A stretch of DNA of 64,000 bases from Escherichia phage EC100: sequence record NC_105587.1. One strand, 5' to 3'. Position numbers and translations under genes: made by a program. Of this stretch, positions 4,618 to 57,933 are shown piece by piece (position 1 is the first letter of the stretch; the number at the start of each line of letters is the position of its first letter). Under the pieces are notes generated by a model. That model was not told the DNA's origin. It saw only the letters and a program-made list of their open reading frames with translations, and searched no databases.

Positions 4618-4821
4618 TCAAACAATTTTTTGAGATTTTTTATGATTTTCCCTCAGGTCAATCATAATGTTTCTCCAGATCATTTCTAAACCTTGCTGGC
4701 GACCTTGCAAATATTGCTTGAATCGCCATTTTACAGAATTTTGCGCTACTGTCAACAAGTTTTTTGTTTTGCTATCTAGTGCCTTGCTAGGCTTGCCAGT
4801 GATCAAAAGCGTTTGTTTCAT
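4618..4821 (-). CDS. hypothetical protein
   Basis: 67-aa ORF, weak RBS. Confidence 0.3.
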   Translation of the reverse strand: MKQTLLITGKPSKALDSKTKNLLTVAQNSVKWRFKQYLQGRQQGLEMIWRNIMIDLRENHKKSQKIV

Positions 4822-5332
4822 ATCGTCGATTCCTTATAATGAATAAGTTTACCGCCGATAGGCTTTAAGATATACCCAATTTTTAAAGAGCGTGGCGGTA
4901 AACTTCCCGCCGTGTAGTTCGTCATTGCCGCCCTACGAGATAAATAATAACAAACAACGAAAAAGGCGCAACCTTATTTTTGTAAAGAAATGTAAAGACA
5001 AACGCCACCGGACACCATGCGGCGATCTGGGCGCAGCGCATTAAAATTAAAAGAAACGGGCGCGCGATTACCACAAAATAAAGCAGATATGCAAGTAATT
5101 TTTTCATTTATATTTGCTTTGCCCTACTTGACAAAATCCAAAAAGCTCATGGCGGCGATAAACGGCTTATCCCCTTATGATGGGATGGCTAAAAACTTTA
5201 TTGCGTTCTGGAGCGTTTTAGGCCGCTTATTTTCGACTTAACAAATCATTAACATAAGCAAAATTGAAAAATAGTTTGAAAAGATCTTGACTTTTAAAAA
5301 TCAAGATCAAATGACTTATTTTATAAAATAAA

Positions 5333-27424: not shown

Positions 27425-27461
27425 ACAGAAAAACCCCAGACTACTTATTCAATAGCTGGGG
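27425..27461 (-). terminator. rho-independent terminator
   Basis: CCCCAG...CTGGGG then TTTTTCTGT on reverse strand. Confidence 0.6.
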
Positions 27462-27472
27462 TTTGTTATTAA

Positions 27473-27778
27473 TTACAGATCGGGGCGTTCATCTTCGAAC
27501 GACACAAAGCCATCAAATTCATCATTTGAAATACCACCAGTATAGGTGATGTCCGCAATCATCGCTTCCATTTTTCTAATCTCCGAAATTTTCATGCCTG
27601 CTTTACTATTCTTATAGTATTTGCGAGGGTTCCCGCACATCCAACAAGAACAGATGCAAGGAGTAGTAGTGATAATACCTAACCGCTTAGGGCTTTCTTC
27701 ATGTGGAAAGACTGTCCAGTACTTCTTGCGGTTGTTCTTCACACGTTGCCGGTGATGACGTCTTAATGCTCGATCCAC
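27473..27778 (-). CDS. Cys-rich hypothetical protein
   Basis: 101 aa; 'CICSCWMCGNPRKY'. Confidence 0.45.
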   Translation of the reverse strand: MDRALRRHHRQRVKNNRKKYWTVFPHEESPKRLGIITTTPCICSCWMCGNPRKYYKNSKAGMKISEIRKMEAMIADITYTGGISNDEFDGFVSFEDERPDL

Positions 27779-27859: not shown

Positions 27860-28228
27860 TTACATCGCCTGAGTAAATGTACGACTAATAACGTCGTTCT
27901 GTTGTTCACGCGTCAATGCGTTAAAACGTACAGCGTACCCTGAAACACGGATAGTTAATTGAGGGTATTTTTCAGGATGTTTCTGCGCATCCAAAAGCTG
28001 ATCACGGCTTAATACATTGACATTTAGGTGCTGACCACCTTCGATTTGAGGGGCGACTTCCACTTTGACTTCACGGAAGGCTTCGGGATCGAATTGTGGT
28101 GTGATACCTTCTAGATCTTCAACTAGAACTTTCTGTTTAAGTTCACCATTGTCGGAGTATAGCTGAATAATCTGATTTTCATGAACAAGGTTAATTACGC
28201 CAGATTTAAGATTTTGATATGCTTTCAT
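27860..28228 (-). CDS. autonomous glycyl-radical cofactor (GrcA/YfiD-like)
   Basis: 122 aa; C-terminus '[11 protein letters not shown]...[35 protein letters not shown]' nearly superimposes on E. coli GrcA. Confidence 0.8.
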
Positions 28229-28251
28229 TAGATCTCCCCGATGTTAGAATT

Positions 28252-28327
28252 TGGTAGTTAGTAGTGGATTTGAACCACTGTAGTCGCTCCGTATGAAGGA
28301 GGTGCATAACCACTCTGCCAACTAACT
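28252..28327 (-). tRNA. tRNA-Met/Ile2 (anticodon CAT)
   Basis: 7-bp acceptor stem, T-arm, anticodon loop with CAT, encoded CCA; hand-folded. Confidence 0.65.
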
Positions 28328-28423: not shown

Positions 28424-28500
28424 TGGTACTCCGGGAGGGATTTAAACCCCCGATCTCTCGGTTATCAGCCGAGTGCTTTAGATCGCTAAGCTACCGAAGC
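28424..28500 (-). tRNA. tRNA-Ile (GAT)
   Basis: acceptor stem with G-U pairs, anticodon stem CTCGG/CCGAG, loop with GAT. Confidence 0.6.
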
Positions 28501-28501
28501 A

Positions 28502-28729
28502 TTAACATTTCACAGCAGAACGTTTGCCATTTCTAGGTGCACCTGGAAGTCGTGCACGTTCTGTCATTCTTCGCTTAATCTTTGAGATATTTTCTAGTGT
28601 TTGTTTTTCAGGCTTAATACCTGAAACACTACACCACTGATTACCGTCCCATGCGGTAATGATCATAACACCATTACTCATGATCTTTTCTGTAAAAGTA
28701 ATCCTCATTATAGCAACTCGTCTAAGCAA
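28502..28729 (-). CDS. hypothetical protein
   Basis: 75-aa ORF between tRNA genes. Confidence 0.4.
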   Translation of the reverse strand: MLRRVAIMRITFTEKIMSNGVMIITAWDGNQWCSVSGIKPEKQTLENISKIKRRMTERARLPGAPRNGKRSAVKC

Positions 28730-29001
28730 GAGGTATATTTAAGTTTACCATCTTTATCTACTTTGATTTCGACTTCCGCCCGTGGTACTTGACGAACTAC
28801 ACCATGAATCATCTTATAGCGAATGCCTTTAGCTAGTTCATGATCTTTTGGAAAGACTTGCTTAACCGTTACTACCTTGTACCCATCACGCGGTGTTAGT
28901 ACAACTACTTGATCACCTTCTTTGATTTTCCAAGAGCCAGGAAATTCGTAAGTATAGCGTTGACCACCAGTTTGGAACACAACAGAAAGATAACGTTTCA
29001 T
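28708..29001 (-). CDS. hypothetical protein
   Basis: 97 aa; promoter upstream. Confidence 0.5.
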   Translation of the reverse strand: MKRYLSVVFQTGGQRYTYEFPGSWKIKEGDQVVVLTPRDGYKVVTVKQVFPKDHELAKGIRYKMIHGVVRQVPRAEVEIKVDKDGKLKYTSCLDELL

Positions 29002-29031
29002 TTGGCTTCCCTCTCATTATTTTATATAAAT

Positions 29032-29060
29032 ATTATAACAATAAATAAGAGAGAAAGCAA
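29032..29060 (-). promoter_or_regulatory. strong sigma70 early promoter
   Basis: TTGCTT/17 bp/TATAAT. Confidence 0.6.
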
Positions 29061-29075
29061 ATGAATTTTTAAATT

Positions 29076-29150
29076 TGGTGCTCCCACCAGGAATCGAACC
29101 CGGTTCAGATGCTTACAAGGCAACTGCATCGCCAACAATGCTTTAGGAGC
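29076..29150 (-). tRNA. tRNA-Thr (TGT)
   Basis: acceptor stem, T-arm CCGGG-TTCGATT-CCTGG, anticodon loop with TGT. Confidence 0.6.
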
Positions 29151-30028: not shown

Positions 30029-30105
30029 TGGGGTGGCTAGTGGAATTCGAATCCACATAGGCCTGATTCACAATCAGGATCATTAACCAATTATGATATA
30101 GCCAC
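30029..30105 (-). tRNA. tRNA-His (GTG)
   Basis: acceptor GTGGCTA/TAGCCAC, anticodon arm CCTGA-TTGTGAA-TCAGG. Confidence 0.7.
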
Positions 30106-32896: not shown

Positions 32897-32973
32897 TGGC
32901 GCGACCGATGGGATTTGAACCCACATTCCCTCCCGTGACAGGGGAGTACCATTACCAAGCCAGCCCCGGTCGC
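32897..32973 (-). tRNA. tRNA-Asp (GTC)
   Basis: acceptor GCGACCG/CGGTCGC, anticodon arm CTCCC-CTGTCAC-GGGAG. Confidence 0.65.
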
Positions 32974-33940: not shown

Positions 33941-34015
33941 TGGTGCACCCTGTTCGTATCGAACGAACCTCTCAAGCTCTTCAGGCAAGCGCTAATCCAT
34001 CTCAGCTAAAGGTGC
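33941..34015 (-). tRNA. tRNA-Phe (GAA), tentative
   Basis: acceptor and D-arm fit; anticodon loop CTGAAGA but stem has two U-U mismatches. Confidence 0.45.
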
Positions 34016-35868: not shown

Positions 35869-35946
35869 TGGTGGCTCCCCGAGGATTCGAACCTACGTAC
35901 CTTCCGGTTATGAGCCGGGTGCTCATACCATATGAGCTTGAGAACC
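35869..35946 (-). tRNA. tRNA-Met/Ile2 (CAT)
   Basis: acceptor GGTTCTC/GGGAGCC with G-U pairs, anticodon arm CCGG-CTCATAA-CCGG; weak T-stem. Confidence 0.5.
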
Positions 35947-53051: not shown

Positions 53052-54926
53052 ATGAATCGCAATGATGAACTAAAGTACAAGGAAATGCAGTCCTTGATTA
53101 GAAACTGCAAAGAAATTATTGAGGGTTCTGCTGATGAAGAGCTTCTCTTTAATAATGCGAATAAACCCTCTGAGCGTTTCCCTACACAAAGGGATATGCT
53201 TGCAGGGGAATTGAGTAAATATCTGATTCTAGAAGAAATGCCAATTCAGATTCGAAATGCTCATATGATTGGTGATATTCACTTTCATGATGCTGATTAC
53301 GCTGCTTTAGGCATGACTAACTGTTGCCTAGTAGCCCTGGAAGATATGTTGAAAAATGGTATGAAAGTTGGTAATGCTGAAATTAGCACTCCAAACTCTA
53401 TCACTACTGCGGCTGCTATTACAGCTCAGATTATCACACAGGTTAGTTCCCATCAGTATGGAGGTACTTCTGTAGACCGATTAGATGAGGTATTGGCTCC
53501 TTATGTTCGTAAGTCTTATGATAAGAATCATGCGTTTGCAAAACGTTGGACTAAGGATGAAGCCAAAGCATCAGTAATGGCTACGGAGATGACTGAAAAA
53601 GAAGTCTATGATGCTTGTCAAGGTCTAGAGTATGAAATCAATACGATGTTCAACTCTAATGGTCAGAGTCCATTTATTACCTTTGGTTTTGGTCTAGGAA
53701 CTTCTTGGGAAGCACGTCTAGTACAGAAAGCAATACTGAAAGTACGTATGGATGGCTTAGGCATCAATAAACGTACAGCTATCTTTCCGAAACTGGTGTT
53801 TGTTCTGCGTGATGGCGTAAATATGAAGCCAGGAGATGTTAATTATGACATCAAGAAGTTAGCTATGAAATGTACTGCTGAACGTATGTATCCGGACTAT
53901 ATAAGCTATGATAAGGTTGTGGAAGTTACGGGCGACTATAAAGTTTCTATGGGCTGCCGTTCATTCCTAGCTGCTACAGAAGATGGTGAAACTGCCGGTC
54001 GTAATAACTTAGGTGTTGTTTCTATAAACTTGCCTAGAATTGCTATCGAAGCTGAGGGGAATATTGATCTATTCTTTGATTTGCTTGAGTTACGTGTGGA
54101 TACAGCGTTAAAAGCATTGGAGTGGAGGGTTGATCGCTTAAAATACATTCAAGCTAAAGCCGCACCCATCCTCTATATGTCAGGAGCCTTTGGATTACGC
54201 TTAGGGCCTGATGAGTATGTATTCGATCATTTCTATAACCGTGCTTCTGTATCTCTGGGGTATATTGGTTGCCATGAAATGTTACAGTTCATGTTTGGCA
54301 AAGATGTGGATACAATGTCAGACACCTGTATTAAGTTTGTACAACGTGTTCTACAGTATATGCGGGATAGAGTGGATCAGAAGAAGGAAGAGACTCAGTT
54401 AGGCTATAGTCTGTATGCTACACCATCAGAGTCCCTATGTGATCGCTTTTGTCGTCTAGACCATGAATATTTCCCGGAGCATGAAGATATTCTGTCCAAA
54501 GGTTACTACACTAACTCACACCACCTCGATGTGGAGCGTAAGGTTGCTCCAAACGTGAAGTTTGACTATGAATCTAATTTTACTCCAATTGCATCTGGTG
54601 GGTGTATTTCCTACGTGGAATTACCAGACATGAAACGATTCCCAGATGCACTGGAATGGGTTATTAACTATGCTGCTAGTAAGGTTCATTACTTTGGTAT
54701 TAATACTCCAGTGGATTCTTGTGGTAAATGTGGATTCTTAGGTGAAACAGTAGCATCCGAAGATGGATTCAAGTGCCCTATCTGTGGTAATCATGACCCT
54801 GAAACTCTTGAAGTAACTCGTCGAGTTTGTGGGTATCTTGGAAATCCAGGTGCTCGTCCGTTTAACCCAGGCAAACAACATGAGGTTATGGGCAGGGTGA
54901 AACATCAGGATATTCTAGCTAAATAA
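53052..54926 (+). CDS. nrdD: anaerobic ribonucleoside-triphosphate reductase
   Basis: 624 aa; C-terminal Zn ribbon 'CGKCGF...CPICG' and glycyl-radical motif 'RVCGYLG'. Confidence 0.85.
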   Translation: MNRNDELKYKEMQSLIRNCKEIIEGSADEELLFNNANKPSERFPTQRDMLAGELSKYLILEEMPIQIRNAHMIGDIHFHDADYAALGMTNCCLVALEDMLKNGMKVGNAEISTPNSITTAAAITAQIITQVSSHQYGGTSVDRLDEVLAPYVRKSYDKNHAFAKRWTKDEAKASVMATEMTEKEVYDACQGLEYEINTMFNSNGQSPFITFGFGLGTSWEARLVQKAILKVRMDGLGINKRTAIFPKLVFVLRDGVNMKPGDVNYDIKKLAMKCTAERMYPDYISYDKVVEVTGDYKVSMGCRSFLAATEDGETAGRNNLGVVSINLPRIAIEAEGNIDLFFDLLELRVDTALKALEWRVDRLKYIQAKAAPILYMSGAFGLRLGPDEYVFDHFYNRASVSLGYIGCHEMLQFMFGKDVDTMSDTCIKFVQRVLQYMRDRVDQKKEETQLGYSLYATPSESLCDRFCRLDHEYFPEHEDILSKGYYTNSHHLDVERKVAPNVKFDYESNFTPIASGGCISYVELPDMKRFPDALEWVINYAASKVHYFGINTPVDSCGKCGFLGETVASEDGFKCPICGNHDPETLEVTRRVCGYLGNPGARPFNPGKQHEVMGRVKHQDILAK

Positions 54927-55438: not shown

Positions 55439-55601
55439 TCCAGAAAACATGCTTATTGAGCAGTGGAACTTTGGTTATAATGCTGGTGTAGCTACTTGTA
55501 TTGCTAGATTGGATATGCTTATTAAACAAGAAAAGGTACGCCCGGAGGAAGCAATTTTACTCCGAAATATTATCGAAGGATTTAAGCAAGGAATCGTATA
55601 G
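55407..55601 (+). CDS. hypothetical protein
   Basis: 64-aa ORF. Confidence 0.4.
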   Translation: MDFLNQNLKSNPENMLIEQWNFGYNAGVATCIARLDMLIKQEKVRPEEAILLRNIIEGFKQGIV

Positions 55602-56437
55602 TGCGTAGATTAATTATTATTAGCGGTGCGGGTTTGAGTGTTGAAAGTGGTGTACGAGCTTTTCGTACTGATACTGCTAGTGGTAAAGCATTGTGGGATG
55701 ATTATGACTTAGAAGAGGTATGTAATATTCATGCCTTTCGTGGTAATTTTTATCATAAAACTCATATGTTTTACAACAAGCGTCGTGAAGAGCTAAAAAC
55801 TGTTGAACCCAATCTTGCACACTTGCGTATTGGTGAATGGTATAAGAAATATCCGGGTCAAGTAGTAAACTTGACTACCAACGTTGATGACCTTATTGAG
55901 CGTGCTGGCGTTCCACATAGTGACATTCTGCACATTCATGGGTATTTAAAAGAGGTTGTTGTAGCTGATAGCTACAATAGTAGCAATAAACGAATTATTG
56001 ATATTGGGTATAGCTCTATTGACCCAGATGATTATAAATGGGTTAAACCTAATGTAATCTTCTTCGGGGAACATGCTCCAGCATATGCAGAAATGTACAA
56101 TGTTTTTGATGGTATTACCAGTCAAGATATGATCATTGTGGTTGGTTGCTCTAATCAAGTAATTAACTTCTACTGGGAATTATTCCCTGTTCTTAATCTG
56201 ACTTCTGCAAAACTTATGGTAGTTAACTACTATGATAGTGCTCTAGCGGTGGAACCAGGCTATCAAGGTATGACTCGTAGTGAGATGTACCAATTGGAAG
56301 AACGCGGTATCCCTTACTGGAGTAAAGGTGCGGTAGATGCTTTCAGTGACCCTGGTTTTATTGCTCGTGTAGAAGCCCATTTAGAGGGTAGACCTTATGT
56401 GCCGGAGAGAATGGGGAACAAATATGTCCATAGTTAA
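55601..56437 (+). CDS. Sir2-family (sirtuin-like) NAD-dependent enzyme
   Basis: 278 aa; 'GAGLSVESGVRAFR', 'NVDDL...AG', catalytic-His 'HIHG', 'NVIFFGE'; no Zn-ribbon cysteines. Confidence 0.65.
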   Translation: MRRLIIISGAGLSVESGVRAFRTDTASGKALWDDYDLEEVCNIHAFRGNFYHKTHMFYNKRREELKTVEPNLAHLRIGEWYKKYPGQVVNLTTNVDDLIERAGVPHSDILHIHGYLKEVVVADSYNSSNKRIIDIGYSSIDPDDYKWVKPNVIFFGEHAPAYAEMYNVFDGITSQDMIIVVGCSNQVINFYWELFPVLNLTSAKLMVVNYYDSALAVEPGYQGMTRSEMYQLEERGIPYWSKGAVDAFSDPGFIARVEAHLEGRPYVPERMGNKYVHS

Positions 56438-56606
56438 ATCTGTGTATACACATCCCGATGATATATTTGTATGGGCGGATGGTAGTTGGTGTTATCGATG
56501 TGAGCTATGGGAAATGGACTATAAATCCGATGACTATGGTGTCATATATGTTGATACGGCTGAGTATGATACGTTCTTAGAAAGGAACAAAAATGGAAAT
56601 AAGTAA
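56424..56606 (+). CDS. hypothetical protein
   Basis: ORF trimmed to internal Met. Confidence 0.35.
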   Translation: MSIVKSVYTHPDDIFVWADGSWCYRCELWEMDYKSDDYGVIYVDTAEYDTFLERNKNGNK

Positions 56607-57099
56607 TACTCCAATTATTTTTCTAGACATTGATGGGGTGCTTAATTCGAGCATCTCCCACCATCATGCACCTGATGATGAAAAGATTTTCTTTGGAAGT
56701 GACTGGGTTTTTAAACCACTTCTCAAGGCTTTTCAGGACTTTATTCGTCCTTCTCCAATAATGATTGTTGGGGTATCTTCATGGTTCTCTGTCAAGAATG
56801 AGATGGAGAACGTTCAGATTATGGCCGGATTAGATCTTATCGATCGTTTTCTTGGTACAACGGATTTTACTGGTGGTGGGCTATCTAGAGGTAATTCTGT
56901 TCTTCGCTTCGTTGAAAAGCATAAGCTCAAACATTGGTGTGTGCTGGATGACGCTGGTGCTATGATGTATCAGTATCCAACGGTTATAGTCAACGGTAGA
57001 ACTGGAATAAATCTTCAAGATTTAAGAGCTGTTAGCTATATGTTAGAATTTAGTCCAGATCTTGAAATGTGTAAAGCCCTACAACAATTTAAGGTGTAA
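56593..57099 (+). CDS. HAD-like phosphatase (tentative)
   Basis: 168 aa; 'IIFLDIDGVLNS' DxDGV motif I. Confidence 0.5.
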   Translation: MEISNTPIIFLDIDGVLNSSISHHHAPDDEKIFFGSDWVFKPLLKAFQDFIRPSPIMIVGVSSWFSVKNEMENVQIMAGLDLIDRFLGTTDFTGGGLSRGNSVLRFVEKHKLKHWCVLDDAGAMMYQYPTVIVNGRTGINLQDLRAVSYMLEFSPDLEMCKALQQFKV

Positions 57100-57101
57100 A
57101 T

Positions 57102-57530
57102 ATGTTCAATAATGTATTCTCTAAAGAAGCTAACCCAATATTGGTTAATTTTTGGCGTACTCTTCCAGACAACCTGTACAATGAGGCTATTAATGCTCTG
57201 AAAATATGGTGTGAGAATAATGAAATCTCCTTTGCTTTTAAAGGTGAGATTGAAGAAGCTCCCTGTATTGGTTTAATTGTGCAGGTAGAGGATGGCTTTG
57301 AAGAGATTGTCGGCTGGAAAGAGTTAGATGAAATGGGCTTGGTTTTTGCGTTAAACTATAAGCTGTTTATGCCTAATAAGCACCGTATTGTTGTTAACTA
57401 TAAAACCAGTGAATCTCCGGGCTTTCAAGTTAATGAACATTACGGTTGGTCTTACTCACCGGAAGAAGTAAATGATGGTATACAAAAACTTCGTCGTTTT
57501 GGTTATCAAATTCCGGGTTTAACCGCCTAA
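57102..57530 (+). CDS. hypothetical protein (paralog of next gene)
   Basis: 142 aa; shares 'W.ELDEMGL..ALN..LF' and C-terminal 'G..IPGL' with 57541..57933. Confidence 0.5.
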   Translation: MFNNVFSKEANPILVNFWRTLPDNLYNEAINALKIWCENNEISFAFKGEIEEAPCIGLIVQVEDGFEEIVGWKELDEMGLVFALNYKLFMPNKHRIVVNYKTSESPGFQVNEHYGWSYSPEEVNDGIQKLRRFGYQIPGLTA

Positions 57531-57540
57531 AGGGGGCACA

Positions 57541-57933
57541 ATGGAACAAGTATATTGGCGTCAGATTGATCCTAGTTTGGTGAAGCGTGCGGAGAAGCTG
57601 CTACAACGTTGGTTGGGGGTAAGACAAGCCTCCTTCACTTTTCCGGAGCAGCAAATAGACGATCCCTGTGTTGGTGTTTTCCTATCAGGCTACGCTAGGG
57701 AATGGGAATTGGATTGGAATGAATTGTCTGCTATGGGTTTAATTGTTGCACTAAATTTCTCTTTGTTCCATCCACGTGGTTTGGCCATATGTCGTGTGCC
57801 TGATGACGGTTGTTCGCCCCATCTTTTACAGGTGGAAGATGATATTTGGGAGTACACTCCAGATATTCTCAAAGAAGCCAAAGAACAATTAAACCGTGTT
57901 GGGATCTATGTTCCGGGGCTAAATGATAAATGA
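57541..57933 (+). CDS. hypothetical protein (paralog of previous gene)
   Basis: 130 aa; GGGGG RBS; terminator follows. Confidence 0.5.
   Translation: MEQVYWRQIDPSLVKRAEKLLQRWLGVRQASFTFPEQQIDDPCVGVFLSGYAREWELDWNELSAMGLIVALNFSLFHPRGLAICRVPDDGCSPHLLQVEDDIWEYTPDILKEAKEQLNRVGIYVPGLNDK

What the first reader, a model, noticed from the sequence alone, without database searches (positions are those of the whole stretch)
27860..28228. GrcA-like autonomous glycyl-radical cofactor encoded next to the tRNA cluster
The C-terminal ~60 residues almost superimpose on E. coli GrcA (YfiD), including the radical glycine loop RVSGYAVRF. The phage also encodes a glycyl-radical enzyme, NrdD, at 53052-54926. GrcA is known as a spare part that restores oxygen-damaged pyruvate formate-lyase. 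A phage copy suggests the virus keeps host anaerobic metabolism running during infection, or that it has been repurposed.
Basis: partly seen in the sequence, partly recalled or inferred. Interest (0 to 1): 0.6.

Follow-up and report, generated by a model that had tools for sequence, protein, structure and literature searches.

The report
Phage copy of PFL spare part
This T5-like phage carries a small, well-conserved gene for a stand-alone "spare" glycyl-radical module that most likely repairs the host's oxygen-damaged pyruvate formate-lyase; this kind of phage gene was shown to do that for T4 in 2001, so the find is correct but largely ordinary.

Summary
Window 27860-28228 (-) encodes a 122-aa protein. 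Its last 62 residues are 77% identical to E. coli GrcA and 80% to the C-terminus of PflB, including the loop RVSGYAV.

The window is Escherichia phage EC122, a T5-like phage. The gene is T5.056 in phage T5, occurs in about 430 T5-like genomes, and is under strong purifying selection (omega 0.055).

It is a full-length homologue of T4 vs.6/Y06I. The literature reports that Y06I is activated by the host PFL activase and restores oxygen-cleaved PFL. So this is an uncharacterised, divergent member of a known kind, not a new system.

The N-terminal half is the most diverged among GrcA-type proteins. It links to bacterial GrcA only through T4-like intermediates.

The phage has NrdD but no radical-SAM activase, so it must rely on host PflA and NrdG.

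One new point: in at least three other phage lineages the GrcA-like gene sits inside the nrdD-nrdG operon yet keeps the PFL-type loop. This suggests its value is to keep PFL making formate, the reductant of class III ribonucleotide reductase. That link is inferred, not shown.

The parts
27860..28228 (-). GrcA-like CDS, 122 aa plus TAA stop; equals T5.056 and is a homologue of T4 vs.6/Y06I
   Evidence: ORF. Pfam Gly_radical 3.7e-18. PHROG 1209 full length, 8e-48. 6owr 1.4e-30. omega 0.055 across 29 alleles.
27863..28048 (-). C-terminal glycyl-radical module, residues 61-122, which mimics PflB 698-759
   Evidence: 77% identity to GrcA and 80% to PflB. 45 of 48 positions shared by GrcA and PflB are kept. 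omega 0.009. The AF2 model matches 6owr and 2pfl.
27929..27949 (-). Gly loop RVSGYAV (residues 94-100); predicted radical site Gly97 at 27938-27940
   Evidence: Read directly from the sequence. Invariant in 64 homologues. This heptamer is the PFL-AE peptide substrate, whereas RVCGYLG of RNR is not (PMC13450708).
28049..28228 (-). N-terminal half, residues 1-60: a divergent version of the GrcA N-terminal region
   Evidence: hhalign versus T4-like and jumbo-phage N-halves: prob 81%, E 1.3e-5. Those versus bacterial GrcA N-halves: prob 96%, E 1.4e-9. Direct comparison with bacterial N-halves matches only the last 12 residues. omega 0.10.
28234..28239 (-). Shine-Dalgarno GGGGAG, 5 nt upstream of the ATG
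   Evidence: Leader sequence printed.
28252..28327 (-). tRNA-Met (CAT), immediately upstream in the same transcription unit; 23-nt spacer to the ATG
   Evidence: ARAGORN; GenBank annotation.
28424..28500 (-). tRNA-Ile (GAT), in the same unit
29007..29080 (-). Counterpart of the annotated T5 promoter P11: -35 TTGCTT at 29055-29060, 17-nt spacer, TGnTATAAT with -10 at 29032-29037. Likely promoter of the unit ORF-ORF-tRNA-Ile-tRNA-Met-GrcA-like-ORF.
   Evidence: T5 RefSeq annotation mapped onto the window, score 128/150. Promoter activity was not tested here.
27473..27778 (-). Co-transcribed downstream ORF (T5.055 homologue), 101 aa, Cys-rich (PCICSCWMCGNPRK); function unknown
   Evidence: phrog_4499 at 1e-39, no Pfam or PADLOC hit.
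27429..27461 (-). Rho-independent terminator closing the unit (CCCCAGCTATTGAATAAGTAGTCTGGGGTTTTT)
   Evidence: 100% identical to the terminator annotated in T5.
53052..54926 (+). NrdD, class III (anaerobic, formate-dependent type) ribonucleotide reductase with Gly loop RRVCGYLG. It is functional context, not part of the gene.
   Evidence: Pfam NRDD 1e-171. T4 NrdD 1h78 4e-177. Loop sequence.

Best explanation
The gene encodes a phage-borne GrcA/Y06I-type spare part for pyruvate formate-lyase.

Proposed mechanism, step by step:
1. The gene is transcribed early, from a P11-type sigma-70 promoter, together with tRNA genes. This is inferred from the T5 annotation.
2. The 122-aa protein is made without a radical.
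3. In an oxygen-limited host, host PflA (PFL-activating enzyme, radical SAM) abstracts an H atom from Gly97 in the loop RVSGYAV. This is inferred: the phage encodes no activase.
4. When the host PflB radical at Gly734 meets O2, the chain is cut and loses its C-terminal radical domain.
5. The phage C-module is a close mimic of PflB 698-759. It docks in place of the lost domain and passes the radical to Cys419, restoring pyruvate to acetyl-CoA plus formate. The N-terminal half helps recognition and activation, as reported for YfiD.

Because T5 destroys host DNA and shuts off host synthesis (established T5 biology), the host cannot replace PflB or GrcA, so the phage brings its own.

The likely pay-off is twofold: continued ATP and acetyl-CoA supply, and continued supply of formate, the reductant used by the phage's own anaerobic ribonucleotide reductase NrdD. 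This last step is inference, supported by gene neighbourhoods in other phages.
For: Sequence and fold:
- C-module 77-80% identical to GrcA and PflB, as close to PflB as E. coli GrcA itself is (48/62).
- 45 of 48 positions shared by GrcA and PflB are retained; the three changes are conservative.
- The loop RVSGYAV is exact. PFL-AE activates this heptamer but not the RNR loop RVCGYLG (PMC13450708).
- The AF2 model's C-half matches YfiD 6owr (1.6e-5) and PFL 2pfl (2.7 A over 51 residues).

Homology to the validated phage protein:
- Full-length homology to T4 vs.6/Y06I (PHROG 1209; tblastn 52.7% over 100%; N-half hhalign).
- The literature reports that Y06I and YfiD are activated by PFL-AE and restore cleaved PFL (PMC8683613).

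Selection and distribution:
- omega 0.055 overall, 0.009 for the C-module and 0.10 for the N-half, across 29 alleles including T5.
- Hosts of the 1583 phage records with a homologue are facultative anaerobes of the groups that own PflB and GrcA, such as Escherichia, Salmonella, Klebsiella, Shigella, Aeromonas, Yersinia and Vibrio.

Dependence on host activases:
- No ORF with a radical-SAM CxxxCxxC motif of activase size exists anywhere in the EC122 genome (annotations).

Formate link:
- Class III RNRs of the E. coli/T4 type use formate as reductant (PMC4493059), and the window's NrdD is of that type.
- GrcA-like genes lie inside or beside nrdD-nrdG operons in Aeromonas phages of the 65 and phiAS5 size classes, in RaK2-size jumbo phages and in BUCT695. 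All keep the PFL-type loop, while the adjacent NrdD has RRV[CS]GYLG.
Against: - Nothing was tested biochemically for the T5-like protein.
- Its N-half is the most diverged of all GrcA-type proteins. A direct profile comparison with bacterial GrcA N-halves fails, and the NCBIfam GrcA score of 121 is below the cut-off of 170. In YfiD the N-half matters for binding cleaved PFL and for activation.
- The validated T4 protein has a C-module that is 95% identical to E. coli GrcA, even at the DNA level. The T4 experiment therefore says little about a 77%-identical C-module.
- The host already has GrcA, so the benefit of a second copy is assumed.
- In this window the gene is 25 kb from nrdD on the opposite strand. 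KVP40 has no GrcA-like gene in its nrdD-nrdG block. The neighbourhood link is therefore lineage-specific.
- Genome-wide co-occurrence with NrdD was not measured, only parallel counts.
Confidence: 0.72

Rival explanations
1. It is a spare part or radical carrier for the phage's own class III ribonucleotide reductase NrdD. It would replace the oxygen-cleaved C-terminus of NrdD and would perhaps be activated by NrdG.
For: The phage encodes NrdD. In several other phage lineages the GrcA-like gene is embedded in the nrdD-nrdG operon. The literature notes that spare parts for glycyl-radical enzymes other than PFL have not been excluded.
Against: There is no similarity to the NrdD C-terminus beyond RVxGY (6/15 identities, score 28), and no zinc-ribbon cysteines. 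Even the operon-embedded copies keep the PFL loop R[VI]SGYAVRFN next to NrdDs with RRV[CS]GYLG. The C-module conserves exactly the positions shared by GrcA and PflB. The literature reports that T4 Y06I works with PFL and PFL-AE. T5-like phages have no NrdG.
Confidence: 0.04
2. It is a decoy or modulator rather than a repair part. By binding host PflA or PflB it would redirect or throttle host fermentation, for example by sequestering the activase or blocking PFL.
For: The N-half is strongly diverged from bacterial GrcA yet constrained (omega 0.10). That would fit a changed interaction mode. The host already has its own GrcA.
Against: The radical glycine and the whole C-module are under extreme constraint (omega 0.009) and are invariant with functional GrcA and PflB. 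A decoy would not need every catalytic-site contact. The T4 homologue restores activity.
Confidence: 0.07
3. It acts on intact but radical-less PFL, and possibly TdcE, rather than only on oxygen-cleaved enzyme. In that case it would serve as a general booster of formate-lyase activity during infection.
For: E. coli GrcA restores formate production to full-length PflB-G734A in vivo (strain DH801 versus DH903, PMC12338860). TdcE shares the same Gly loop and activase. The gene is in an early unit with no sign of O2-specific control.
Against: This is a variant of the main explanation rather than an alternative. No data bear on the T5-like protein.
Confidence: 0.12
4. It is a non-functional remnant of a captured 3' end of host pflB or grcA.
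For: At the DNA level the best E. coli match is the 3' end of pflB (74% over 186 nt).
Against: The ORF is intact in all 29 distinct alleles with omega 0.055 and has its own SD and start. Its GC content is phage-like (40.7% versus 39.0% for the window). A conserved N-half absent from pflB is present. The gene occurs in about 430 T5-like records.
Confidence: 0.01

Closest known systems
T4 vs.6 / Y06I (NP_049730.1), the phage autonomous glycyl radical cofactor
   Same: Same size (120 versus 122 aa) and same two-part architecture. Same MKAYQ N-terminus and same PHROG (1209). It aligns end to end at about 52-55% identity. The N-halves are related (hhalign prob 81%). Both are encoded by virulent coliphages that also carry NrdD.
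   Different: The T4 C-module is 95% identical to E. coli GrcA, with 95.7% DNA identity and 59/62 matching third positions, so it is a recent host-derived mosaic. The T5-like C-module is 77% identical and fully ameliorated. The T5-like N-half carries a 7-residue insertion and scores lower against the GrcA model (121 versus 151 bits). The genomic setting also differs: tRNA cluster here, the vs/regB region in T4. T4 encodes NrdG; EC122 does not.
E. coli GrcA (YfiD), TIGR04365 / IPR011140
   Same: A stand-alone protein of about 125 aa. Its C-terminal module mimics PflB 698-759 with loop RVSGYAV (48/62 identical). AF2 predicts the same secondary-structure pattern for both proteins.
   Different: The N-terminal 50 residues are not detectably similar by direct comparison. 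The score is below the NCBIfam equivalog cut-off. It is phage-encoded and lies in a constitutive early unit with tRNA genes. By contrast, control of the bacterial gene by anaerobiosis and acid is from my own knowledge and was not tested.
C-terminal glycyl-radical domain of PflB (and TdcE)
   Same: 80% identity over 61 residues, including the C-terminal TFTQxM ending. The model superposes on 2pfl at 2.7 A.
   Different: It is not a formate-lyase. It has 122 aa rather than 760 and lacks the barrel and Cys418/Cys419. The GenBank labels 'pyruvate formate-lyase', '2-ketobutyrate formate-lyase', 'acetyltransferase-related' and 'ribonucleotide reductase subunit' are therefore misnomers.
Short GrcA2/GrcA3 variants (NF008341, NF038360; about 80 aa)
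   Same: They share the C-module (117 and 91 bits).
   Different: Those families are essentially the C-module alone. The phage protein has a conserved 60-residue N-half and scores below their cut-offs of 158 and 145.

Membership tests
GrcA/YfiD-type autonomous glycyl radical cofactor | Small stand-alone protein, not the C-terminus of a full-length glycyl-radical enzyme | tested here: met
   122-aa ORF with its own SD and ATG. A tRNA gene lies 23 nt upstream, so no upstream reading frame could be fused to it.
GrcA/YfiD-type autonomous glycyl radical cofactor | C-terminal module homologous to PflB residues ~698-759 | tested here: met
   phmmer versus 1h16/1cm5 at 5e-27, with 61-122 aligned to 698-759. 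6owr at 1.4e-30. 80% and 77% identity. Fold match.
GrcA/YfiD-type autonomous glycyl radical cofactor | PFL-type glycine loop RVSGYAV, the PFL-AE substrate motif | tested here: met
   Residues 94-100 are exactly RVSGYAV and invariant in homologues. The motif's specificity is taken from PMC13450708.
GrcA/YfiD-type autonomous glycyl radical cofactor | GrcA-type N-terminal region of about 60 residues | tested here: inconclusive
   The direct profile comparison with bacterial N-halves aligns only 12 residues (prob 8%). The link holds transitively: T5-like to T4-like/jumbo at prob 81%, and T4-like to bacterial at prob 96%. AF2 predicts a similar strand pattern in both.
GrcA/YfiD-type autonomous glycyl radical cofactor | Score at or above the NCBIfam TIGR04365 equivalog cut-off (170 bits) | tested here: not met
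   121 bits, matching only residues 50-122. The biochemically validated T4 Y06I also fails at 151 bits, while E. coli GrcA scores 234. The cut-off therefore defines the bacterial equivalog, not the function.
GrcA/YfiD-type autonomous glycyl radical cofactor | Radical installed by PFL-AE; restores activity of oxygen-cleaved PFL | not testable with these tools
   Needs anaerobic biochemistry (EPR, coupled PFL assay) or the DH903 complementation assay.
Phage Y06I/vs.6 family (PHROG 1209) | Full-length match to the phage family profile | tested here: met
   phrog_1209 at E 8e-48, residues 1-122 on profile positions 1-121 of 121. tblastn to T4-like vs.6 genes covers 100%.
Full-length pyruvate / 2-ketobutyrate formate-lyase (as labelled in GenBank) | An enzyme of about 760 aa with the ten-stranded barrel and catalytic Cys418/Cys419 | tested here: not met
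   Only positions 683-744 of the 744-position TIGR01255 model are matched, at 85.9 bits against a cut-off of 994.
Hypothetical NrdD spare part | Mimicry of the NrdD C-terminus (loop RVCGYLG, preceding Zn-ribbon cysteines) | tested here: not met
   The best local alignment to the phage's own NrdD is 6/15 identities. The loops differ in every phage examined.

The most novel reading that the evidence does not exclude
Phage GrcA-type genes may belong to an anaerobic dNTP-supply module. By keeping host PFL active after oxygen hits and host shut-off, they would secure formate, the obligatory reductant of the phage's class III ribonucleotide reductase.

This would explain two observations. The gene is wedged into nrdD-nrdG operons in at least three unrelated phage lineages while staying a strict PFL mimic. 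And T5-like phages carry both genes but no activase.

A more radical variant is that the protein directly services NrdD, or is activated by NrdG. That is not excluded, but I put it at about 0.04.
Probability: 0.35. Interest if true: 0.5.

Novelty: new member of a known kind. Interest (0 to 1): 0.3.

Why it matters
It shows that a virulent phage invests in keeping one fragile host enzyme alive instead of encoding the enzyme. Such phages live in the gut and similar oxygen-fluctuating habitats.

The T5-like branch is an untested natural variant. Its N-terminal half has been remodelled but is still constrained, which could help resolve what that reportedly 'enigmatic' region does in YfiD.

If the formate link to NrdD holds, it gives a concrete, testable reason why about 3% of sequenced phage genomes (1583 of 50,697 records) carry this gene.

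On the practical side, the common database labels for this gene (pyruvate formate-lyase, 2-ketobutyrate formate-lyase, acetyltransferase-related, ribonucleotide reductase subunit) are wrong and should read 'autonomous glycyl radical cofactor'.

Tried and rejected
- NrdD spare-part idea: rejected on sequence grounds.
- Pseudogene or captured fragment: rejected by dN/dS and by the conserved N-half.
- Phage-encoded activase: I searched every stop-to-stop frame of at least 60 aa in the whole EC122 genome for CxxxCxxC. Only two small ORFs carry it, a 66-aa frame at 4646-4843 and the 101-aa neighbour at 27473-27778. Neither is of activase size and neither has a Radical_SAM hit.
- Own promoter or terminator: the consensus scans found nothing above chance, and the RNA after the stop codon is not unusually structured (z -1.3). 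The unit boundaries came instead from mapping the T5 RefSeq annotation.
- 'Folded beta domain' as a special feature of the T5-like N-half: rejected. AF2 predicts the same for an E. coli-type GrcA N-half, which NMR reports as disordered. Foldseek found no match for the N-half.
- Defence-system libraries: no hit.
- Literature on the T5-like copy, or on a GrcA-NrdD link in phages: nothing found in the held library. PMC9112899 was not available.
- Possible counterexample GE_vB_N8 (60.6% identity, 51 kb): it turned out to be an UNVERIFIED, unannotated Tequintavirus record less than half the usual genome length, so I did not pursue it as a counterexample.
- KVP40: its nrdD-nrdG block holds no GrcA-like gene.
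- A first Biopython bootstrap timed out and was replaced by a numpy NJ. Support for placing the T5-like clade with the phage-type proteins is only moderate (142/200).

Full report
**What is there**

The window is identical to Escherichia phage EC122 (ON185583.1, Tequintavirus, T5-like), and window coordinates equal record coordinates.

At 27860-28228 on the minus strand there is a 122-aa ORF. A GGGGAG Shine-Dalgarno sits 5 nt before its ATG. The ORF begins 23 nt after the 3' end of tRNA-Met, at the left edge of a cluster of 20 tRNA genes.

The protein hits the following:
- Pfam Gly_radical, 3.7e-18.
- The NMR structure of E. coli YfiD/GrcA, 6owr, at 1.4e-30 over residues 46-121.
- E. coli PFL at 5e-27, with residues 61-122 on 698-759.

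Residues 94-102 read RVSGYAVRF. NrdD at 53052-54926 is also real (Pfam NRDD 1e-171; T4 NrdD 1h78 4e-177).

**Anatomy: the C-module**

The protein has two halves. The C-module (residues 61-122) has these identities:
- 48/62 to E. coli GrcA.
- 49/61 to the PflB C-terminus.
- 48/62 to T4 Y06I.

GrcA and PflB are themselves 48/62 identical. So the phage module is as close to PflB as the host's own validated spare part is.

Of the 48 positions where GrcA and PflB agree, 45 are kept. The three changes are conservative: E76D, S104A and S121A.

An AF2 model (mean pLDDT 74) gives helix, Gly hairpin, helix for this half. It matches 6owr (1.6e-5) and 2pfl (2.7 A over 51 residues).

**Anatomy: the N-half**

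The N-half (residues 1-60) shows no direct similarity to bacterial GrcA beyond [10 protein letters not shown]. That is why the NCBIfam GrcA equivalog scores 121 bits against a cut-off of 170.

Profile-profile comparison links it in two steps:
- The T5-like N-half aligns end to end with the N-halves of T4-like and jumbo-phage proteins (prob 81%, E 1.3e-5).
- Those align end to end with bacterial GrcA N-halves (prob 96%, E 1.4e-9).

T4 Y06I itself also falls below the curated cut-off (151 bits). The cut-off therefore delimits the bacterial equivalog, not the function.

AF2 predicts a beta-rich N-half at pLDDT about 80. It predicts the same for an E. coli-type GrcA N-half, which NMR finds disordered in solution (PMC8683613). 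This is not a distinguishing feature.

**Conservation and distribution**

IMG/VR yielded 30 T5-like loci, including T5 itself (the 121,750-bp contig). Together with the window gene these give 31 genes. Results across the 29 distinct alleles:
- All are intact.
- Median dN/dS is 0.055 overall.
- The C-module is at 0.009 and the N-half at 0.10.

In the T5 RefSeq the gene is T5.056, 'putative acetyltransferase-related protein', identified by InterPro IPR001150.

A tblastn search finds homologues in 1583 of 50,697 phage records:
- About 430 are at 90% identity or more (T5-like).
- About 1000 are T4-like, labelled vs.6, GrcA, or 'hypothetical'.
- The rest include jumbo phages and Vibrio, Aeromonas and Providencia phages.

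No E. coli genome carries the full gene. All 5426 match only over the C-module, through pflB (74% DNA identity) and grcA (71%). The gene's GC content (40.7%) is that of the phage (39.0%).

A neighbour-joining analysis makes the T5-like proteins monophyletic (200/200). It places them with phage-type rather than bacterial GrcA in 142/200 replicates, which is moderate support.

**Transcription context**

I mapped the T5 annotation onto the window. This gives one unit:
- P11-type promoter at 29007-29080, with TTGCTT, a 17-nt spacer and TGnTATAAT.
- ORF 28708-29001.
- ORF 28502-28708.
- tRNA-Ile.
- tRNA-Met.
- The GrcA-like gene.
- A Cys-rich ORF at 27473-27778.
- A terminator at 27429-27461, 100% identical to the one annotated in T5.

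My own consensus scans had not picked these up.

**What it most likely does**

The literature reports that both E. coli YfiD and T4 Y06I receive a glycyl radical from PFL-activating enzyme and restore activity to oxygen-cleaved PFL. These are the only two validated spare parts (PMC8683613; Wagner et al. 2001, cited).

PFL-AE activates the heptapeptide RVSGYAV but not the RNR loop RVCGYLG (PMC13450708). The window protein has the former; the window NrdD has RRVCGYLG.

The EC122 genome has no ORF of activase type (annotations). Both radical proteins must therefore be activated by host enzymes.

I conclude, by homology and not by test, that this is a PflA-activated stand-in for the radical domain of host PflB. 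It would be supplied by the phage because a T5-infected cell can no longer make its own; that last point rests on established T5 biology, not on data here.

**A link to NrdD after all, but an indirect one**

I looked at GrcA-like genes in other phages with 10-kb flanks. The gene lies in or beside the nrdD-nrdG operon, on the same strand, in these cases:
- A 235,229-bp Aeromonas-phage-65-size contig, with order nrdD, nrdG, grcA-like and gaps of 2 nt or less.
- A 225,268-bp phiAS5-size contig, with the same order and overlapping genes.
- Three jumbo-phage contigs of 346-357 kb, with order nrdD, grcA-like, one ORF, nrdG (in one of the three a further ORF lies before nrdG).
- Aeromonas phage BUCT695 (Grimontviridae), where grcA-like starts 10 nt after nrdD.

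The NrdG identity was confirmed by Pfam Fer4_12/Radical_SAM hits.

Every one of these copies keeps R[VI]SGYAVRFN, while the neighbouring NrdD has RRV[CS]GYLG. They remain PFL mimics, not NrdD mimics.

Class III reductases of the E. coli/T4 type take both reducing equivalents from formate (PMC4493059), and PFL is the cell's formate source. The simplest reading is that phages co-express a PFL repair part with their anaerobic reductase to secure its reductant.

Caveats on this reading:
- In T5-like and T4-like phages the two genes are not adjacent; in this window they are 25 kb apart on opposite strands.
- KVP40's nrdD-nrdG block has no GrcA-like gene.
- I could only compare counts, 1583 records with GrcA-like versus 2907 with NrdD, in overlapping host genera. 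I could not measure true co-occurrence.
- I found no paper making this link in the held library.

**Rivals**

- Direct service to NrdD is disfavoured by the sequence (0.04).
- A decoy or inhibitor role is disfavoured by the extreme constraint on the catalytic loop and by the T4 precedent (0.07).
- Action on intact, radical-less PFL or on TdcE is a variant of the main model and has in vivo precedent for GrcA (PMC12338860).
- A dead gene fragment is excluded.

**Verdict**

The kind of thing is known: T4 Y06I since 2001, T5.056 annotated with the domain, and some T5-like records already labelled 'autonomous glycyl radical cofactor'.

The T5-like protein is an uncharacterised member with the most diverged N-half. 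I therefore file it as a new member of a known kind, with interest 0.3.

The nrdDG-operon association and the formate hypothesis are the only parts that go beyond what is documented.

Noticed in passing
L003:6558-6920 (T4 vs.6/Y06I, NC_000866 63557-63919) versus L004:400-783 (E. coli grcA): T4 Y06I is a mosaic. The DNA of its C-module is 95.7% identical to E. coli grcA, with 59/62 matching third-codon positions, and groups with bacterial GrcA in 198/200 bootstraps. Its N-half groups with phage versions in 191/200. This looks like a recent recombination with the host gene. It means the classic Y06I experiment tested an essentially E. coli C-module.
   Followed up: yes
L102:7679-10351; L123:7244-10246; L072:8039-11082; L074:7695-11959; L042:34470-36947: GrcA-like genes are embedded in or abut nrdD-nrdG operons in Aeromonas T4-like phages, RaK2-size jumbo phages and Aeromonas phage BUCT695. 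All keep the PFL-type Gly loop.
   Followed up: yes
window 53052-54926 and the whole EC122 genome: The phage encodes NrdD but no NrdG or any other radical-SAM activase, unlike T4-like phages where nrdG sits next to nrdD. Its anaerobic reductase must depend on host NrdG.
   Followed up: partly
window 27473-27778 (-): A 101-aa basic, Cys-rich ORF (…TTPCICSCWMCGNPRKYY…), the homologue of T5.055, is co-transcribed directly downstream of the GrcA-like gene. It hits phrog_4499 (unknown function) and has no Pfam or PADLOC hit. Its cysteine motif fits CxxxCxxC, but the protein is too small for an activase.
   Followed up: partly
proteins P0100, P0107, P0108, P0109, P0074, P0115 (sequences): Metagenome-derived 127-aa proteins combine an E. 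coli-type GrcA N-half with a C-module wholly or partly PflB-like; P0109 and P0108 match E. coli PflB exactly there. P0107 stands for 900 member sequences. These are either assembly chimeras on short contigs or gene conversion between grcA and pflB.
   Followed up: no
L098-L100, L105, L107-L112 (IMG/VR 'viral' contigs); PHROG 21327: Ten IMG/VR contigs that matched only the C-module carry 94-100% E. coli-like full-length pflB. This is probably host DNA in contigs called viral. PHROGs also holds a 760-position full-length PFL family.
   Followed up: partly
window 30029-30105, 32897-32973, 33941-34015; 35872-35946, 40158-40229: The tRNA calls disagree. ARAGORN finds tRNA-His, tRNA-Asp and tRNA-Phe that the GenBank table lacks. 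GenBank lists a tRNA-Met (35872-35946) and a 'tRNA-OTHER' (40158-40229) that ARAGORN does not report.
   Followed up: no
window 55601-57933 (+): Downstream of NrdD lie a SIR2-family protein, a HAD domain of the 'Swiss Army Knife RNA repair' type (PF18143) and two tandem DUF7415 proteins. The grouping is unexplained.
   Followed up: no
models m17303a370c4c and m388cfd464060: AF2 predicts a confident beta-rich fold (pLDDT 80-87) for the N-half of both the T5-like protein and an E. coli-type GrcA. NMR reports that region of YfiD as disordered. It may be a partner-induced fold.
   Followed up: partly
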